From the IMG/VR virus record IMGVR_UViG_3300042691_022450: 64,000 nt of DNA. The stretch is one strand, 5' to 3'. The translations under genes and the position numbers were made by a program. Positions 882-35,688 of the stretch are shown here, piece by piece. The notes under the pieces are model-generated. The model worked only from the letters and a program-made list of their open reading frames with translations, made no database searches and was not told the origin of the DNA. Position 1 is the first letter of the stretch, and each line of letters starts with the position of its first letter. The DNA comes from a virus.

Positions 882-1224
882 GCGAGTATGGTGGAATCGG
901 TAGACACACCAGACTTATGAAAATTGAGCCTCATTTGGGAAACCTTATGAGTGTAATTCCTCAAATTCGGTGAAACCTGTAAAATGGCAATACCGAGCGA
1001 AGTTGCAAGACAGTTGGAAAGACAACGGCTACCCAATGTGCTTCTAGAGAGGGTTGGAATTATCTAGAAAATGCAAAACGTGTAGAGACTAGACGGGGAA
1101 CACCTAAACTGAAAGGTATGGTGAAGGTATAGTCCAGACCACAAACCGAAAGGGTAGTGAAAACTATAGTGGTAAGAAAATCTGTTGGGCATTGCCCGTG
1201 GGAGTTCAAGTCTCCCTACTCGCA
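882..1224 (+). tRNA. trnL: tRNA-Leu (UAA), split by group I intron (exons 882-916 and 1177-1224)
   Basis: Joining ...CAGACTT to AAAATCTG... restores the CTTAAAA loop; long variable arm; acceptor GCGAGTA/TACTCGC. Confidence 0.9.
917..1176 (+). ncRNA. Group I self-splicing intron (cyanobacterial/plastid trnL type, IC3-like)
   Basis: Core motifs AATTGAGCC, AAATTCGGTGAAACC (P), GGCAATACCGAGC (Q), GTAGAGACTAGACGG (R), AAGGTATAGTCC (S); 5' exon ends in U and intron ends in G. Confidence 0.9.
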
Positions 1225-6684: not shown

Positions 6685-6732
6685 TTTCTAACCTCTAAAA
6701 TATTATAAATAATAATAAAGTTGGAGGTTAGA

Positions 6733-7278
6733 ATGTCTGGTAAATCAGTTGTTGAATTTCGTCAAAGAAGAAAAAGATGGGCAGTTGAAGCATTTGGTGG
6801 AAAATGTGGTATTTGTGGTTATGATAAGTGTGTTGAAGCATTAGATTTTCACCACATAGACCCAAATGAAAAAGATTTTTCTATAACTGCATCTGTAGCA
6901 AACAGACAAGTATTTGTTGAAGAACTTAAAAAGTGTGTTTGTTTATGTTCTAACTGCCATCGTGAAGTTCATTCTGGAATTACAAAAATCCCAGATAATG
7001 TTCTAAAATTTGATGAAAGTTTTTCCAATAAACCTGTTCCAGAAAAACCAAAGCACCCTTGTAAAGAGTGTGGGAAACTAACAATCATTACTCAAACTTT
7101 TTGTTCAGTAAAATGTTCTCATAAAAGCAGAGAAGTTGTTGATTGGCCAACTAATCAAGAATTACAAAAATTAGTTCTTGAGAATGGTTATCGTTCTACT
7201 GGAAGAATGTTTGGAGTTAGTGATAATGCTGTTAGAAAAAGGTTAAATAAATTATCCAAATATCGTGGGGAAGTGTAA
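6733..7278 (+). CDS. HNH homing endonuclease inserted in tRNA array
   Basis: GGKCGICGY...LDFHHIDP...LCSNCHREVH; extra CxxC/FCS motifs and C-terminal HTH-like GVSDNAVRK. Confidence 0.9.
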   Translation: MSGKSVVEFRQRRKRWAVEAFGGKCGICGYDKCVEALDFHHIDPNEKDFSITASVANRQVFVEELKKCVCLCSNCHREVHSGITKIPDNVLKFDESFSNKPVPEKPKHPCKECGKLTIITQTFCSVKCSHKSREVVDWPTNQELQKLVLENGYRSTGRMFGVSDNAVRKRLNKLSKYRGEV

Positions 7279-7419: not shown

Positions 7420-7492
7420 GGGGTCTTAGCTCAATTGGTAGAGCATTTGCTTTGCAAGCAAGAGGTTAGGGGTTCGAGTCCCCTAGATTCCA
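7420..7492 (+). tRNA. tRNA-Ala (UGC)
   Basis: G3.U70; TTGC-TTTGCAA-GCAA. Confidence 0.93.
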
Positions 7493-7712
7493 TTGTCCAA
7501 GAGGATAAGAAGTCTGATGTTTCGGACGGGGTTTCGATTACCCCCATCTCCATTACTTGGGGGTGCCAGGTTTCGACGGGGCATAAAGGTCTTATCTGTT
7601 GACGGGACAAGAAAACAAACGCAAACAAAATTGTTGCTTTCTCTCGTCAAACCGCATTGGTTTGAACTAAACGAGTGAGGGGGTTATAAGTTTCCTTCTT
7701 ACCCAAAACTTA
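7493..7712 (+). ncRNA. ssrA: Circularly permuted (two-piece) tmRNA; tag ANKIVAFSRQTALV
   Basis: T arm and 3' acceptor strand (GGGGTTTCGATTACCCCCATCTCCA, 7528-7552) precede the 5' strand GGGGGTG..GGTTTCGAC (7559); G3.U70; tag frame 7621-7665. Confidence 0.9.
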
Positions 7713-7714
7713 CA

Positions 7715-7739
7715 AGGAGGTGTAATGCCTCCTATTTTT
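7715..7739 (+). terminator. Intrinsic terminator ending tRNA/tmRNA operon
   Basis: AGGAGG..CCTCCT hairpin plus T run. Confidence 0.75.
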
Positions 7740-7775
7740 GTGCCTTGTGCCAATATAAGGACTGGCACAAGGCAC

Positions 7776-7804
7776 TTGACATTCCGTCAAAACTTTGTTA
7801 TGAT
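7776..7804 (+). promoter_or_regulatory. Sigma70 promoter for Ro60-like gene
   Basis: TTGACA-17-TATGAT, preceded by a GTGCCA-N10-TGGCAC palindrome. Confidence 0.75.
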
Positions 7805-7821
7805 GAATAAGTACTCGATAA

Positions 7822-7880
7822 AAGATCAGGCAGCAATACAATACATTTTCCTTTCAAGAAAACCCATAAAAACTGATCTT
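7822..7880 (+). ncRNA. CAGCAA stem module A (Y-RNA-like candidate)
   Basis: AAGATCAG/CTGATCTT stem, CAGCAA, internal TTTTC-CTTTCAA-GAAAA hairpin. Confidence 0.65.
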
Positions 7881-7886
7881 GTATTA

Positions 7887-7940
7887 AAGTTAATTCAGCA
7901 ACACAACTTTGAATCTGTAAACTCAAAACAACATTAACTT
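7887..7940 (+). ncRNA. CAGCAA stem module B, abutting the RBS
   Basis: AAGTTAAT/ATTAACTT stem, CAGCAA, internal hairpin containing CTGTAAA. Confidence 0.6.
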
Positions 7941-7952
7941 GGAGAAAAAATT

Positions 7953-9419
7953 ATGACTTTCCTGACCGCACTTGAAACTGAACTGAACACCACTGAAACT
8001 CTCAATGGTGCCAAAGCATATAAATCTACTCTCAACAAATGTGTAGACCTGTTCGGTAAAATCTCTGCCTGTCGTAATGACATTCCACAGGCACGGAAAC
8101 TATTTGCTCACGCATATATGGAAGACCCTGAGACTGCGACTCGTATTCTCTTCAATGCCCGTGATATTCGTGGTGGGCAAGGAGAACGTGAAGTCTTCCG
8201 TAATCTATTCAAAGACCTTGTGAATGGGAATAGTGAAATTGCAACTAAACTTATTGAACTCATTCCTGTCTATGGTCGTTGGGATGACCTTCTAATTCTT
8301 GAAGGCACTGCTATCTGGGATAATGTTGTGGATGTTATCATCACGCAACTTGGTAAAGATGATGTTGCTCTGACCGCAGGGGAGAATGTTTCTCTGCTTG
8401 GTAAGTGGATGCCTTCTATCAATGCTTCTAGTGCTGATAGCAAACGTCTTGGTCGTGTGTTCGCAAAACGTCTTGAACTGAACGAACGTCAGTATCGTAA
8501 GTTCCTGACTGCTCTTCGTTTTCAAATTAAAATTGTGGAACAGAAGATGTGTTCCAAAGAATGGTCTGAGATTGACTACGAACATCTTCCTTCTCGTGCT
8601 GGATTTATGTATCGTAAGGCATTCGCAAAGCAGGATGCTACTCGTTACGCAGAATATTTGAGTGCCGTGGAGAAAGGTGATAAGAAAATCAATGCTGGAA
8701 CCATCTATCCTTATGAGATTGTAGATAAGTATCTCTACAAAGGTGGCAGTCAAGATAAGACTATTGACCTGATGTGGGAGGCACTGCCTAACTATATGGA
8801 AGGTCAAGAACTCAATGGTCTTGTGGTTGCCGATGTTTCTGGTAGTATGATGGGAACTCCAATGGCAGTTTCTATCTCTCTTGCGATGTATATTGCCGAA
8901 CGCAATACTGGTATTTGGAAAGATAAGTTCATCACTTTCTCTGAATCTCCTGAACTTCAATCCATCGTCGGTAATACTATCGGTGACCGTATTCGCAATC
9001 TTGCCAGTTCTTCTTGGGGATTCAATACTGACCTCAAAGCAGTATTTGAAAGTGTTCTGAATGCAGGAATCAAGAATAATGTTCCTGACGCAGAAATGCC
9101 TAAGAAACTTATCATTGTTTCTGATATGCAGTTTGACCAAGCGTGTAGTTCTAACAAACGCACCAACTTTGAGCAAATTCAGAAGATGTATCATAAGGCA
9201 GGATATGAGATGCCTGAACTTGTTTTCTGGAATGTGAATGCGATTGGGGGCAATGTTCCTATAACTATCCACGATACTGGAACTTGTCTGGTTTCAGGAT
9301 GTTCTCCTTCCATTCTGAAAAGTGTTCTGGGTGGTAAAACTATCACTCCTGTTGACGTGATGAAGGATGCGGTGTATGATGAACGTTATGCTCCTATCGG
9401 TGAGGCATTCAGTTCCTGA
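7953..9419 (+). CDS. DUF2828-type Ro60/TROVE-like protein with C-terminal vWA domain
   Basis: RDIRGGQGER, GRWDDL, GKWMPS motifs; vWA MIDAS DVSGSM, NTD, SDMQFD, FWN. Confidence 0.85.
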   Translation: MTFLTALETELNTTETLNGAKAYKSTLNKCVDLFGKISACRNDIPQARKLFAHAYMEDPETATRILFNARDIRGGQGEREVFRNLFKDLVNGNSEIATKLIELIPVYGRWDDLLILEGTAIWDNVVDVIITQLGKDDVALTAGENVSLLGKWMPSINASSADSKRLGRVFAKRLELNERQYRKFLTALRFQIKIVEQKMCSKEWSEIDYEHLPSRAGFMYRKAFAKQDATRYAEYLSAVEKGDKKINAGTIYPYEIVDKYLYKGGSQDKTIDLMWEALPNYMEGQELNGLVVADVSGSMMGTPMAVSISLAMYIAERNTGIWKDKFITFSESPELQSIVGNTIGDRIRNLASSSWGFNTDLKAVFESVLNAGIKNNVPDAEMPKKLIIVSDMQFDQACSSNKRTNFEQIQKMYHKAGYEMPELVFWNVNAIGGNVPITIHDTGTCLVSGCSPSILKSVLGGKTITPVDVMKDAVYDERYAPIGEAFSS

Positions 9420-9442
9420 ACTGACACAAGGGGGGGGGGAGG

Positions 9443-9472
9443 TTGACAAAACTCCCCAACCTGTAATATAAT
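9443..9472 (+). promoter_or_regulatory. Sigma70 promoter driving the ncRNA array
   Basis: TTGACA-18-TATAAT immediately before the first module. Confidence 0.7.
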
Positions 9473-9479
9473 AATTTTA

Positions 9480-9527
9480 TAGATGGTTCAGCAATTTTAC
9501 CCATTTTATAGGAAAAACAACCATCTA
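9480..9527 (+). ncRNA. CAGCAA module 1
   Basis: TAGATGGTT-CAGCAA...AACCATCTA. Confidence 0.7.
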
Positions 9528-9534
9528 GCAAACA

Positions 9535-9603
9535 AAGGTCTCTCAGCATTTCAATTTTCTCCAAACTCAAATCTGAGACTCTGAAAAACCTCAGTGAGAC
9601 CTT
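9535..9603 (+). ncRNA. CAGCA module 2
   Basis: AAGGTCTC-T-CAGCA...GAGACCTT with inner CTGAG/CTCAG hairpin. Confidence 0.65.
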
Positions 9604-9614
9604 GAAAAAACAAA

Positions 9615-9734
9615 GGGAACGTGGTGTAACGGTAGCATTAACAAAATCGGTAATCTTGTATAAGATTCGGACAGCAATTTCTATTACTTTTTCTGTAAAA
9701 AAAAAAGGTTCAGGTTCGAGTCCTGACGTTTCCA
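9615..9734 (+). ncRNA. tRNA-like RNA (Tyr GUA loop) with CAGCAA insert, module 3
   Basis: Acceptor GGGAACG/CGTTTCC, D arm, T arm TCAGG-TTCGAGT-CCTGA, insert AATCTT-gtat-AAGATT..CAGCAA, then TTTTT-CTGTAAA-AAAAA. Confidence 0.75.
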
Positions 9735-9735
9735 T

Positions 9736-9783
9736 TAGATGATTCAGCAATTTACTGCTTGGTTATGCAAACAAAATCATCTA
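9736..9783 (+). ncRNA. CAGCAA module 4
   Basis: TAGATGATT-CAGCAA...AATCATCTA. Confidence 0.7.
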
Positions 9784-9789
9784 GTTTAA

Positions 9790-9902
9790 AGGAAGGTAGC
9801 TCAGTTGGTAGAGCAACGTAAAATATATCTTGCCAAAGATATTCACAGCAATTAAACTGCATTGGGGGCCGTTGGTCGCAAGTTCGAATCTTGCCCTTCC
9901 TA
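9790..9902 (+). ncRNA. tRNA-like RNA (UGG loop) with 40-nt CAGCAA insert, module 5
   Basis: Canonical acceptor, D and T arms; anticodon stem ACG|insert 9819-9858|GC-ATTGGGG-GCCGT. Confidence 0.8.
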
Positions 9903-9906
9903 CTTA

Positions 9907-9953
9907 TAGATAGTTCAGCAATTTACCCATTTTATAGGAAAAACAACTATCTA
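9907..9953 (+). ncRNA. CAGCAA module 6 (near-copy of module 1)
   Basis: TAGATAGTT-CAGCAA...AACTATCTA; compensatory G-C to A-T change relative to module 1. Confidence 0.72.
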
Positions 9954-9963
9954 GAACAAATAA

Positions 9964-10042
9964 GAGATTATTCAGCAACTCCAAAGGATAACGGTTTATC
10001 AATAGGTAAACTTAGAGAGAATCGAATCTCTCAAATAATCTC
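9964..10042 (+). ncRNA. CAGCAA module 7
   Basis: GAGATTATT-CAGCAA...AATAATCTC with two inner hairpins. Confidence 0.68.
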
Positions 10043-10050
10043 GAAAATAC

Positions 10051-10164
10051 GGGGATGTAGCTCAGTTGGTAGAGCAACGTAAAATATATCTTGTCAAAGG
10101 ATATTCACAGCAATTAAATCGCATTCTAAGCCGTAAGTTACAGGTTCAAGTCCTGTCATCCCCT
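10051..10164 (+). ncRNA. tRNA-like RNA (UCU loop) with 41-nt CAGCAA insert, module 8
   Basis: Acceptor GGGGATG/CATCCCC; ACG|insert 10080-10120|GC-ATTCTAA-GCCGT; T arm intact. Confidence 0.8.
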
Positions 10165-10166
10165 TC

Positions 10167-10284
10167 GAGAATGTAGCCCAAATGGCAGAGGCACCGTTTA
10201 TAAAAAAGTCATCTTGTTGTTAAGATGCGTCAGCATTAAATAAAAAGGCACGATCCAGTGTAGGTTCGAATCCTACCATTCTCA
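10167..10284 (+). ncRNA. tRNA-like RNA (Leu-type body) with CAGCA insert, module 9
   Basis: Acceptor GAGAATG/CATTCTC, D and T arms; CATCTT..AAGATG hairpin then CAGCA; no clear anticodon loop. Confidence 0.72.
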
Positions 10285-10372
10285 TACACAAAGACCAGTT
10301 TTTAAACTGGTACATAATACTTCCAATGCTCCTTCAGACCTGCTATAATACACAGGTAATCAACGAAATCCA

Positions 10373-10552
10373 ATGAAACTTGTCGGTCTTGCTTTTGGTG
10401 TAATTGTCCTTGCTGTTGCTGGACTATTCTTTGAGGCATGGTTGCTTGGAGTGATTCTGTCTTGGTTTGGTGTGACACTGACATTCTGGCAGAACTTTGC
10501 CATTATCTTCCTTGCTAATGCTATTTTCAAATCTAACGTATCTTCCAAGTGA
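10373..10552 (+). CDS. Small membrane protein
   Basis: MKLVGLAFGVIVLAVAGLFFEAWLLGVILSWFG... hydrophobic; first gene after a promoter cassette. Confidence 0.75.
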   Translation: MKLVGLAFGVIVLAVAGLFFEAWLLGVILSWFGVTLTFWQNFAIIFLANAIFKSNVSSK

Positions 10553-10859: not shown

Positions 10860-11399
10860 ATGACCGAAAACTACCCCGAGTTCGTTCCTTTTCCTAAGAT
10901 TCCCCGTCTTCATAAAGAATGTGTAGTTACTGAAAAGATTGATGGAACTAATGGTATTATCTACATCACTGACGATGGAGATATGTTTATCGGAAGTCGC
11001 AATCGTTGGTTGAGTGCAGAGTCTGACAATTTTGGGTTTCATCGTTGGGCATCTGAAAATCAAGATGAACTGATGAAACTTGGTGCTGGTCGTCATCACG
11101 GAGAATGGTGGGGTAGTGGTATTCAACGAGGTTATAATCTACCCAAAGGTGAGAAAAGGTTCTCCTTGTTTAATGTGAGTATCTGGAATTATGAAAACAA
11201 ACCAGAGTGTTGCTATGTTGTTCCTACTCTTTATACTGGAGAGTTTAGCACTAATGAACTTGATGATGCGATGGATAAACTTTGGGATTATGGTTCTGTT
11301 GCCTCTCCAGGGTTTATGAATCCAGAAGGTGTGATGATTTTCCATTCTGCTGCGAATCATTATTTCAAGGCACCTTTTGATAAAAATCATAAGGGTTGA
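10860..11399 (+). CDS. RNA ligase (Rnl2-like nucleotidyltransferase domain)
   Basis: Motif I TEKIDGTN, SRNR, DNFGF, GEWWG, motif IV EGVM, terminal K. Confidence 0.85.
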   Translation: MTENYPEFVPFPKIPRLHKECVVTEKIDGTNGIIYITDDGDMFIGSRNRWLSAESDNFGFHRWASENQDELMKLGAGRHHGEWWGSGIQRGYNLPKGEKRFSLFNVSIWNYENKPECCYVVPTLYTGEFSTNELDDAMDKLWDYGSVASPGFMNPEGVMIFHSAANHYFKAPFDKNHKG

Positions 11400-35516: not shown

Positions 35517-35600
35517 TTCTTACGGGCATCAAAGGTCCAAACTTTGAATAAGACCCACACCTCCTATGCCTCTTCACAATGCACAAACCTGGAGGTTTAT

Positions 35601-35674
35601 GGGTTAGTAGCTCAGATGGATAGAGCAATTCACTTCTAATGAATTGGTCGGGGGTTCGAGTCCCTCCTAACCCG
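35601..35674 (+). tRNA. tRNA-Arg (UCU)
   Basis: ATTCA-CTTCTAA-TGAAT; GGATA D loop. Confidence 0.93.
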
Positions 35675-35688
35675 TTATTTTTATTATT

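What the first reader, a model, noticed from the sequence alone, without database searches (positions are those of the whole stretch)
7822..10042. Stand-alone CAGCAA modules carry anticodon-loop look-alikes
Seen: module A has a perfect 5-bp/7-nt arm TTTTC-CTTTCAA-GAAAA (Glu UUC); B and 3 contain CTGTAAA (Tyr); 2 contains CTCCAAA (Trp) and CTGAAAA (Phe); 7 contains CTCCAAA; 1 and 6 have a weaker CC-ATTTTAT-AGG (Lys-like). Known: host anticodon nucleases (PrrC, RloC, PARIS AriB, VapC) cut specific tRNA loops in anti-phage defence. Inference: the array may be a library of decoy substrates with a constant handle and variable payload. Several stems are weak and the DNA is AT-rich, so some matches may be chance.
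Basis: inference. Interest (0 to 1): 0.7.

Follow-up and report, generated by a model that had tools for sequence, protein, structure and literature searches.

The report
Ro60-partner RNAs displaying tRNA look-alike parts
A cyanophage encodes, around the gene for a Ro60-shaped RNA-binding protein, small RNAs with one constant "handle" and a variable part that in a real but limited share of cases copies a tRNA anticodon arm; whether these act as decoys for tRNA-cutting defence enzymes is untested.

Summary
Partly confirmed. As bare strings the 7-mers are at chance (21 seen, 22.1±3.3 in shuffles).

Across homologous modules the signal is real. In 61 non-redundant free modules from related cyanophages, exactly 7-nt hairpin loops number 23 against 4.4±2.0, and other loop sizes sit at chance. 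Loops identical to natural anticodon loops number 8 of 55 against 0.42, and 6 of 29 against 0.13 in distant phages.

The modules share a handle: a terminal helix, an unpaired CAGCAA and an A-rich opposite strand. They cluster on the gene strand beside a DUF2828/DUF7788 gene whose model folds like Ro60. Cargo also includes T-arm look-alikes, and four whole tRNA-like genes carry a circularly permuted handle in the anticodon arm.

Best reading: Y-RNA-like partner RNAs of a phage Ro60-like protein that display tRNA parts. The decoy idea is possible but untested. This scan has noted the same CAGCAA/DUF2828 system in at least 16 other genomes. I found no description in Rfam or in the papers searched.

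The parts
7776..7804 (+). sigma-70-type promoter (TTGACA-17-TATGAT) ahead of modules A and B and the Ro-like gene
   Evidence: 11 of 12 matches; conserved in relatives
7822..7880 (+). Free module A. P1 is 7822-7829 with 7873-7880; CAGCAA at 7831-7836; anticodon-arm look-alike at 7846-7862 (loop CTTTCAA, 7851-7857); A-rich tail before the P1 3' strand
   Evidence: The hairpin covaries in 12 orthologues: 4 of 5 pairs change on both sides, 88% of cells paired against 30-45% when slid
7887..7940 (+). Free module B. P1 is 7887-7894 with 7933-7940; CAGCAA at 7896-7901; hairpin TTTGA/TCAAA with a 10-nt loop (7908-7927). The P1 3' strand abuts the GGAG ribosome-binding site (7941) of the Ro-like gene
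   Evidence: The same position is kept in L001-L018 and in L032, whose protein is 34% identical
7953..9419 (+). DUF2828 + DUF7788 protein of 488 aa with a Ro60/TROVE ring plus vWA fold and an intact MIDAS DxSxS motif
   Evidence: Pfam; AlphaFold model with pLDDT 82; Foldseek top hits are all Ro60/TROVE (9kop, 9l5y, 1yvr, 2nvo, 9nen; E 6e-8 to 7e-4); D294, S296 and S298 invariant
9443..9472 (+). consensus promoter (TTGACA-18-TATAAT) ahead of the downstream RNA array
   Evidence: 12 of 12; conserved in B3 and IMG/VR relatives
9480..9527 (+). Free module 1. P1 is 9 bp; CAGCAA at 9489-9494; only a weak 2-bp CC/GG hairpin
9535..9603 (+). Free module 2 (CAGCAT variant, 9544-9549). P1 is 8 bp; inner hairpins have 10-12-nt loops
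9615..9734 (+). tRNA-like gene with a closed-hairpin (permuted) handle between the D arm and the anticodon arm. CAGCAA at 9672-9677; anticodon arm TTTTT-CTGTAAA-AAAAA at 9688-9704
   Evidence: Rfam tRNA, 37 bits. The anticodon is GUA here, GCA in L002 and CCA in L003
9736..9785 (+). Free module 4. CAGCAA at 9745-9750; no anticodon-like arm
9790..9902 (+). tRNA-like gene with the handle (9819-9858) inside the 5' strand of the anticodon stem. CAGCAA at 9846-9851; loop ATTGGGG at 9861-9867
   Evidence: Rfam tRNA, 52 bits. The loop is ATTGTAA in L003 and L004
9907..9953 (+). Free module 6, a near-copy of module 1; CAGCAA at 9916-9921
9964..10042 (+). Free module 7. P1 is 9 bp; CAGCAA at 9973-9978. 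Three inner hairpins give a cloverleaf-like fold, the last being T-arm-like (10015-10032)
   Evidence: -21.4 kcal/mol, z = -5.4. T-arm cargo appears in orthologous modules of L005, L007, L008, L009 and L013
10051..10164 (+). tRNA-like gene with the handle in the anticodon stem. CAGCAA at 10108-10113; loop ATTCTAA at 10123-10129
   Evidence: Rfam tRNA, 53 bits
10167..10284 (+). tRNA-like gene whose anticodon loop is replaced by the handle (CAGCAT at 10231-10236)
   Evidence: Rfam tRNA, 36 bits

Best explanation
The free CAGCAA modules are small structured RNAs of 45-80 nt. I read them as Y-RNA-like partners of the phage's own Ro60-like protein (ORF 7953-9419).

Each has a constant handle: a terminal helix P1 with conserved outer pairs (AGAT/ATCT), an unpaired CAGCAA directly 3' of the P1 5' strand, and an A-rich stretch opposite. 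The handle is inferred to be the protein's binding site.

Each also has a variable cargo that imitates part of a tRNA. The cargo can be an anticodon arm (module A here), a T arm or cloverleaf (module 7), or another hairpin. When the handle is circularly permuted and set into the anticodon arm, the cargo is a whole tRNA-like body (9615, 9790, 10051, 10167).

The units are transcribed from two sigma-70-type promoters. They are probably released by the tRNA-processing enzymes that cut the interleaved tRNA-like genes (inferred from 1-8 nt spacings). Modules A and B lie in the 5' leader of the Ro-like gene, and B touches its ribosome-binding site, so they probably also let the protein repress its own translation (inferred).

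In the particle, the cargo would dock host proteins that recognise tRNA parts, such as nucleases or modification enzymes. This would either tether them to the Ro-like ring, as Y RNA tethers Rsr to PNPase, or hold them away from real tRNAs.

Shown here: RNA anatomy, conservation, linkage to the gene, the protein fold, and enrichment of tRNA-type 7-nt loops. Inferred: binding, processing, and what the cargo docks.
For: - Handle and strand: modules occur only on the gene strand in L001-L018 and L031. Opposite-strand matches are few and lack the AGRT base.
- Clustering: in two complete genomes the motif clusters only at the DUF2828 locus (G002 54.8-61.3 kb; B3 219.7-221.8 kb).
- Distant loci: of 67 loci with proteins mostly 40-48% identical, 37 have a handle on the gene strand and 11 on the other strand. 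Positions peak in the 1 kb on either side of the gene. A handle sits just upstream of the gene at 34% (L032) and 48% (L019) protein identity.
- Protein: the model's top ten structural matches are all Ro60/TROVE proteins, including a phage Ro60.
- Precedent: Ro60 orthologues of bacteria and phages bind adjacent Y RNAs that combine a terminal stem with a tRNA-like domain (PMC4201824). Thermus phage phiLo Ro60 binds two phage-encoded Y-like RNAs and host PNPase (PMC12135203).
- Cargo mimicry: exactly 7-nt loops number 23 against 4.4±2.0. Loops with T33 and R37 number 16 against 2.9. Exact natural anticodon loops number 8 of 55 against 0.42 and 6 of 29 against 0.13. The module A hairpin covaries.
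- Other cargo: T-arm cargo and the module 7 cloverleaf-like fold, z = -5.4.
- Permuted form: the embedded handle keeps the same order, A-rich stretch, P1, CAGCAA, spacer, anticodon arm.
Against: - No binding data exist for this protein and these RNAs.
- The free modules do not match Rfam YrlA or any other Rfam family.
- The protein does not hit Pfam TROVE by sequence, and an HMM profile of it finds no Ro60 in the PDB. The link rests on a predicted fold with TM about 0.5.
- Many cargo stems are A-U rich and thermodynamically marginal. RNAfold does not predict module A's arm and RNAalifold predicts only P1.
- An Ounavirinae phage (Mordin) has a DUF2828 gene next to its tRNA array with no handle seen in the two intergenic stretches read. 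The pairing is therefore not universal.
- P1 detection required pairing, so P1 'covariation' across paralogues is partly built in.
Confidence: 0.6

Rival explanations
1. Decoy library. The anticodon-arm cargos are bait or competitive substrates for host anticodon nucleases such as PrrC, RloC, PARIS AriB or VapC-type enzymes, and so spare real tRNAs during infection. The handle only stabilises or marks them.
For: - Real enrichment of natural anticodon loops in the cargo.
- Anticodon triplets flip among near-identical phages while stem, U33 and position 37 are kept: GUA/GCA/CCA at 9693, UGG/UGU at 9861. Five of 23 window-versus-L003 substitutions fall in 14 loop positions (hypergeometric p = 2.4e-4, chosen post hoc).
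- Position 37 mostly follows the natural rule: G37 in each loop with G36, A37 in most loops with A36 or U36.
- Several module A family loops are Lys-type (CTTTTAA, CTCTTAA). From my own knowledge, tRNA-Lys is the target of PrrC and PARIS.
Against: - No nuclease, cleavage or rescue data exist.
- Only about 15-25% of free modules carry a proper arm, and only one of seven in this window.
- T-arm and whole-tRNA cargos are not explained.
- Module A family loops are conserved rather than diversified, and half lack U33.
- The tight linkage to a Ro60-fold gene is not needed for a plain decoy.
- The papers found by the search on anticodon nuclease, phage and decoy did not, by title or abstract, describe such RNAs.
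Confidence: 0.15
2. Intron-like or mobile insert. The handle is a small element that inserts into tRNA anticodon arms and is cut out and resealed by phage enzymes. The free modules are excised or orphaned copies and spacers of the tRNA array with no function of their own.
For:
- The handle sits at three or more different places in the anticodon arm in different genes.
- An RNA ligase gene (PF09414) lies at 10860-11399.
Against: - Free modules are conserved in position and sequence across phages, with covarying inner hairpins. This is unlike debris.
- The ligase was not found in the flanks held for relatives (tblastn, no hit below E = 0.4).
- I saw no bulge-helix-bulge pairing at the junctions by eye, and the insert is far too short for a group I or II intron.
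- Anticodon flips in near-identical phages argue against these being ordinary decoding tRNAs.
Confidence: 0.1
3. Chance hairpins or terminator- and processing-type stems in AT-rich intergenic DNA. On this reading the anticodon-like words are coincidences.
For: Within the window the 7-mers are at chance. Several single-module z-scores are only -1.7 to -2.1, and B is +0.6.
Against: - The same architecture recurs in dozens of phages, only on the gene strand.
- 7-nt loops and natural anticodon loops are enriched against shuffles.
- The module A hairpin covaries.
Confidence: 0.03

Closest known systems
Ro60 (Rsr) with Y RNAs of the YrlA/YrlB type in bacteria and phages (Chen et al. 2014, PMC4201824; Rfam RF02553), and Thermus phage phiLo Ro60 with Yrl1/Yrl2 (PMC12135203; PDB 9KOP, 9L5Y)
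   Same: A Ro60-fold ring-plus-vWA protein is encoded beside small RNAs. The RNAs combine a terminal stem and internal loop or bulge (the protein-binding part) with a module that imitates tRNA. More than one RNA occurs per locus. Phage versions exist.
   Different: - The protein is the DUF2828/DUF7788 family and is not recognised as TROVE by Pfam.
- The RNAs do not match YrlA (25 bits against a threshold of 69, and that hit spans two tRNA genes).
- The handle motif is CAGCAA plus AGAT/ATCT, not the Y RNA conserved helix or the CGAA motif.
- The units are shorter (45-80 nt) and much more numerous (11 per locus here).
- Cargo is modular: an anticodon arm alone, a T arm alone, or a whole normally ordered tRNA with the handle permuted into its anticodon arm.
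Deinococcus radiodurans Yrn1 'anticodon arm' (Chen et al. 2014, PMC4201824)
   Same: A Ro-bound RNA with a 5-bp stem in the position of an anticodon arm.
   Different: The Yrn1 loop has 6 nt and is not reported to copy natural anticodon loops. Here exact natural 7-nt loops are enriched.
Phage answers to anticodon nucleases: T4 Pnk/Rnl1 repair of PrrC-cut tRNA-Lys, and phage tRNA variants that escape PARIS or retron effectors (recalled from my own knowledge, not tested here)
   Same: They concern anticodon loops and phage tRNA clusters, and an RNA ligase gene is nearby in this window.
   Different: Those systems repair or replace real tRNAs. No free anticodon-arm decoy RNA turned up among the papers found by my search, judged by title and abstract. 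The ligase is not conserved at this locus.
tRNA introns: archaeal bulge-helix-bulge introns, including non-canonical positions, and cyanobacterial group I introns in tRNA anticodon loops
   Same: The embedded handles interrupt the anticodon arm, and exact removal restores the stem in two genes.
   Different: The inserts are 40-60 nt with no ribozyme core. I saw no bulge-helix-bulge at the junctions, and the same element also exists free-standing with its own closing helix.

Membership tests
Y RNA / YrlA (Rfam RF02553) | Encoded next to a Ro60/TROVE gene | tested here: met
   The modules flank ORF 7953-9419, whose model matches Ro60 structures. The linkage is kept in relatives.
Y RNA / YrlA (Rfam RF02553) | Terminal stem formed by the 5' and 3' ends, next to an internal loop or bulge | tested here: met
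   P1 is 7-11 bp with different sequences in different modules, plus unpaired CAGCAA and an A-rich opposite strand. P1 detection required pairing.
Y RNA / YrlA (Rfam RF02553) | Scores at or above the family's covariance-model threshold | tested here: not met
   The best YrlA match is 25 bits against a gathering score of 69. It spans the 3' half of one tRNA-like gene and the 5' half of the next. No free module matches.
Y RNA / YrlA (Rfam RF02553) | tRNA-like domain with T and D arms | tested here: inconclusive
   Module 7 has a T-arm-like hairpin and a cloverleaf-like fold. The embedded units are whole tRNA-like genes. Modules A, B, 1, 2, 4 and 6 have no T or D arm.
Y RNA / YrlA (Rfam RF02553) | Bound by the Ro60 protein | not testable with these tools
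   Needs immunoprecipitation or a gel-shift assay.
Ro60 / TROVE protein | HEAT-repeat ring plus vWA domain with a MIDAS motif | tested here: met
   Full-length Foldseek matches to 9kop, 9l5y, 1yvr and 2nvo (E 6e-8 to 1e-4, TM 0.38-0.60). DxSxS is invariant in 17 homologues.
Ro60 / TROVE protein | Sequence match to a TROVE family model or to solved Ro60 sequences | tested here: not met
   Pfam gives only DUF2828 and DUF7788. The profile search against PDB sequences finds no Ro60.
tRNA anticodon stem-loop (as a look-alike) | 5-bp stem, 7-nt loop, U33, purine at 37 | tested here: met
   Met for module A only (7846-7862). Not met for B, 1, 2, 4, 6 and 7. In the wider family it is met in about a quarter of free modules, far above shuffles.
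tRNA gene (RF00005 / ARAGORN) | Cloverleaf recognised by tRNA models | tested here: not met
   No free module is called by ARAGORN or Rfam. Rfam calls only the four insert-bearing genes, and ARAGORN calls none of them.
Anticodon-nuclease decoy | Bound or cut by an anticodon nuclease, and protects phage growth | not testable with these tools
   No computation available here addresses this.

The most novel reading that the evidence does not exclude
The locus is a modular display system. A phage Ro60-like ring, through one universal RNA handle, presents an evolving set of tRNA parts (anticodon arms with rapidly switching triplets, T arms, whole tRNA bodies). These capture or neutralise host tRNA-targeting defence enzymes. 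It would be an RNA-based counter-defence library that has not been described.
Probability: 0.15. Interest if true: 0.85.

Novelty: new variant of a known kind. Interest (0 to 1): 0.62.

Why it matters
Ro60 and its Y RNAs are conserved from bacteria to humans, yet what the tRNA-like part of bacterial Y RNAs is for remains open.

This phage family offers a natural dissection of that question. One handle is joined to separate tRNA parts, with many copies per genome and many genomes to compare. That makes two questions directly testable: which host proteins each cargo binds, and whether the particle protects or attacks the tRNA pool during infection.

It also flags four 'tRNA genes' in this phage, and similar ones in relatives, that annotation pipelines call pseudo-tRNAs or miss. 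Their anticodons switch between near-identical phages, so they are probably not ordinary decoders.

Tried and rejected
- Rfam at a permissive E-value over 7700-10400 gave no family for the free modules. The weak YrlA hit spans two tRNA genes and I judged it spurious.
- RNAalifold on 12 module A orthologues predicted only P1. The inner helices had to be named and counted by hand, and the MAFFT alignment of the P2 region is poor (58% paired), so P2 remains unproven.
- The HMM profile of the protein against PDB sequences gave nothing useful.
- A 15-base handle word scanned over IMG/VR gave mostly chance hits. Only three new loci had real modules (L078, L084, L145).
- RNA ligase as part of the system: tblastn finds it near none of the relatives' loci, so I treat it as context only.
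- The Ounavirinae phage Mordin has a DUF2828 gene beside its tRNAs, but I saw no handle in the two intergenic stretches I read.
- No whole genome is held for this window.
- The full-text search for DUF2828 returned only plant and tardigrade papers.
- The excess of CAGCAA in the window as a whole (72 against 31) is mostly on the minus strand inside coding regions and is unrelated to the modules.
- I looked for bulge-helix-bulge pairing at the insert junctions by eye only and saw none.
Full report
**What the region is.** The window is from a T4-like cyanophage. Its nearest named relatives are Synechococcus phages B3 and B23 (Kyanoviridae), at about 71% nucleotide identity over 69% of 7700-10400. 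Upstream lie 24 ordinary tRNA genes and a two-piece tmRNA. ORF 7953-9419 carries the Pfam families DUF2828 and DUF7788. Rfam also calls four tRNA-like genes that ARAGORN misses, because each has a 45-60-nt insert in the anticodon region: 9615-9734, 9790-9902, 10051-10164 and 10167-10284. Seven free hairpin units lie before the ORF and between these genes. Each has a 7-11-bp closing helix (P1) followed directly by CAGCAA, or CAGCAT in module 2.

**Checking the observation in the window.** Every quoted string is present at the stated place. Only module A forms the described arm: TTTTC-CTTTCAA-GAAAA at 7846-7862. In B the word CTGTAAA sits in a 10-nt loop. In module 2 both words sit in 10-12-nt loops. 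In module 7, CTCCAAA is not in a 7-nt loop. Modules 1 and 6 have only two C-G pairs. 'Module 3' is not stand-alone but the anticodon arm of the tRNA-like gene at 9615-9734. As bare words, YTNNNRN 7-mers in the seven variable regions number 21 against 22.1±3.3 in dinucleotide shuffles (p = 0.70).

**Homologous modules.** The DUF2828 protein retrieved 32 IMG/VR loci. An alignment of the family retrieved 80 more.
- In the cyanophage clade (proteins 63-98% identical), the same units recur at the same places and only on the gene strand.
- The handle consensus is (A/T)AGAT-NNNN-CAGCA(A/T)-TT... on the 5' side and ...AAAA(C)-NNNN-ATCT(A/T) on the 3' side.
- In two complete genomes the motif clusters only at this locus.
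- In 67 more distant loci, 37 have a handle on the gene strand against 11 on the other strand. Positions peak within 1 kb on either side of the gene.
- A handle directly precedes the gene at 48% (L019) and 34% (L032) protein identity.

I clustered the free modules of the clade into 61 non-redundant groups.
- Hairpins of at least 4 bp with a 7-nt loop occur in 29 against 15.6±3.2 in shuffles. With T at loop position 2 and a purine at position 6, the count is 16 against 2.9±1.6.
- I forced P1 and kept CAGCAA unpaired. The minimum-energy folds then contain 23 loops of exactly 7 nt against 4.4±2.0, while every other loop size is at chance. About six of these are T-loop look-alikes (GGTTCGATTCC).
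- After removing T-arm modules, the hairpin loop is letter-for-letter one of 109 natural anticodon loops, taken from 647 tRNAs that ARAGORN called in the loci. This holds in 8 of 55 modules against 0.42 expected, and in 6 of 29 modules from distant loci against 0.13. Examples are TATGT-TTTGGGT-ACATA (Pro), TTGAA-CTTGAAA-TTCAA (Ser), TTTGA-CTGTTAA-TCAAA (Asn) and TCGA-CTTTTAA-TCGA (Lys).
- Permuting letters within the observed loops still leaves the purine at position 37 enriched: 29 against 17.9, p = 2e-4.

Anticodon-arm look-alikes are therefore a real, selected feature of the family. They occur in roughly a quarter of free modules, not in most.

**Module A family.** Twelve orthologues align well across the apical hairpin. 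Four of its five pairs change on both sides, and 88% of cells are paired against 30-45% when the partner is slid. The loop is conserved as C-N-N-T-T-A-A: CGTTTAA, CCGTTAA, CATTTAA, CTTTTAA, CTCTTAA, and here CTTTCAA. About half the members lack U33. This looks like one conserved, mostly Lys-type loop rather than a freely variable payload.

**Embedded copies.** In the tRNA-like genes the handle is circularly permuted. P1 is closed by a 3-5-nt loop, and the chain runs A-rich stretch, P1, CAGCAA, spacer, anticodon arm. This is the same order as in the free modules, so the free hairpins correspond topologically to real anticodon arms. The handle sits in at least three places: between the D arm and the anticodon arm, inside the 5' strand of the anticodon stem, or replacing the anticodon loop.

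The anticodon switches between near-identical phages while stem, U33 and position 37 stay. At 9693 it is GUA here, GCA in L002 and CCA in L003. At 9861 it is UGG here and UGU in L003 and L004. Five of 23 substitutions between the window and L003 fall in the 14 loop positions (p = 2.4e-4), but I chose that comparison after seeing the data. Ordinary decoding tRNAs would not be expected to do this.

**The protein.** The AlphaFold model built on 17 homologues has pLDDT 82. Its top ten structural matches are all Ro60/TROVE proteins: Thermus phage phiLo Ro60, Xenopus and human Ro60, and Deinococcus Rsr, with E from 6e-8 to 7e-4 over the full length. The MIDAS DxSxS motif is invariant. Sequence methods alone do not see this relationship.

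**Comparison with what is known.** Bacterial and phage Ro60 proteins bind Y RNAs encoded beside them. These RNAs join a terminal stem to a tRNA-like domain (PMC4201824). The phiLo protein binds two phage Y-like RNAs and host PNPase (PMC12135203). The present system works like that but is not a member of the YrlA family, since the covariance-model test fails. It differs in four ways: the protein family, the handle motif, the copy number, and the modular cargo together with the permuted insertion into whole tRNA bodies. I found no paper describing it. Earlier notes of this scan report the same CAGCAA/DUF2828 pairing in at least 16 other genomes. I treated those as leads and re-tested the pairing on my own loci.

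**Mechanism, and what remains open.** Most likely (about 0.6) the handle is the binding site of the Ro-like ring. The cargo would dock tRNA-recognising host proteins, and modules A and B would also let the protein control its own translation, since B abuts the ribosome-binding site. It fits the natural loops and the switching anticodons. It does not explain T-arm cargo or the conserved module A loop, and it has no direct support. An intron-like reading of the embedded copies (about 0.1) cannot be excluded without RNA data. The nearby RNA ligase is not conserved at the locus in relatives.

Noticed in passing
window 7480-7731: Two-piece (permuted) tmRNA of the cyanobacterial type (Rfam cyano_tmRNA, 115 bits). 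ARAGORN reads the tag as ANKIVAFSRQTALV, which does not end in the usual Ala-Ala.
   Followed up: no
window 907-1158: Group I intron match (Rfam RF00028, 58.8 bits) directly after tRNA-Ile(tat) at 806-880. It may interrupt another tRNA gene that ARAGORN did not call.
   Followed up: no
window 35560-35596: abiF RNA motif (Rfam RF03085, 46.9 bits) immediately upstream of the isolated tRNA-Arg(tct) at 35600-35675.
   Followed up: no
window, whole: CAGCAA occurs 72 times against 31±6 expected. Most copies are on the minus strand inside the long coding region at 12-30 kb (TTGCTG on the plus strand), which is probably a codon-pair effect unrelated to the RNA modules.
   Followed up: no
L005 4720-4810 and L009 4730-4815: A minihelix-like unit (acceptor stem GGGGAAG.../...CTTCTCCGC plus a T arm) carries the closed handle and CAGCAT in place of the D and anticodon arms. 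It resembles a tmRNA-like tRNA domain. This window has no counterpart.
   Followed up: no
L175 2500-2620, L177 530-650, L179 5430-5540, L182 3800-3910: In distant DUF2828 loci the handle encloses circularly permuted tRNA mimics in the order T arm, acceptor hairpin, D arm. This is the YrlA topology, but with the CAGCAA handle.
   Followed up: partly
window 9734-9790: Free modules start 1-2 nt after the 3' end of the preceding tRNA-like gene and end 5-8 nt before the next one. RNase P and the 3' tRNA-processing enzymes alone could therefore release them.
   Followed up: no
window 6721-7278: A 185-aa ORF with a Cys-rich segment and a helix-turn-helix-like C-terminus lies between tRNA blocks. It has no Pfam hit and may be a homing-endonuclease-like gene.
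   Followed up: no
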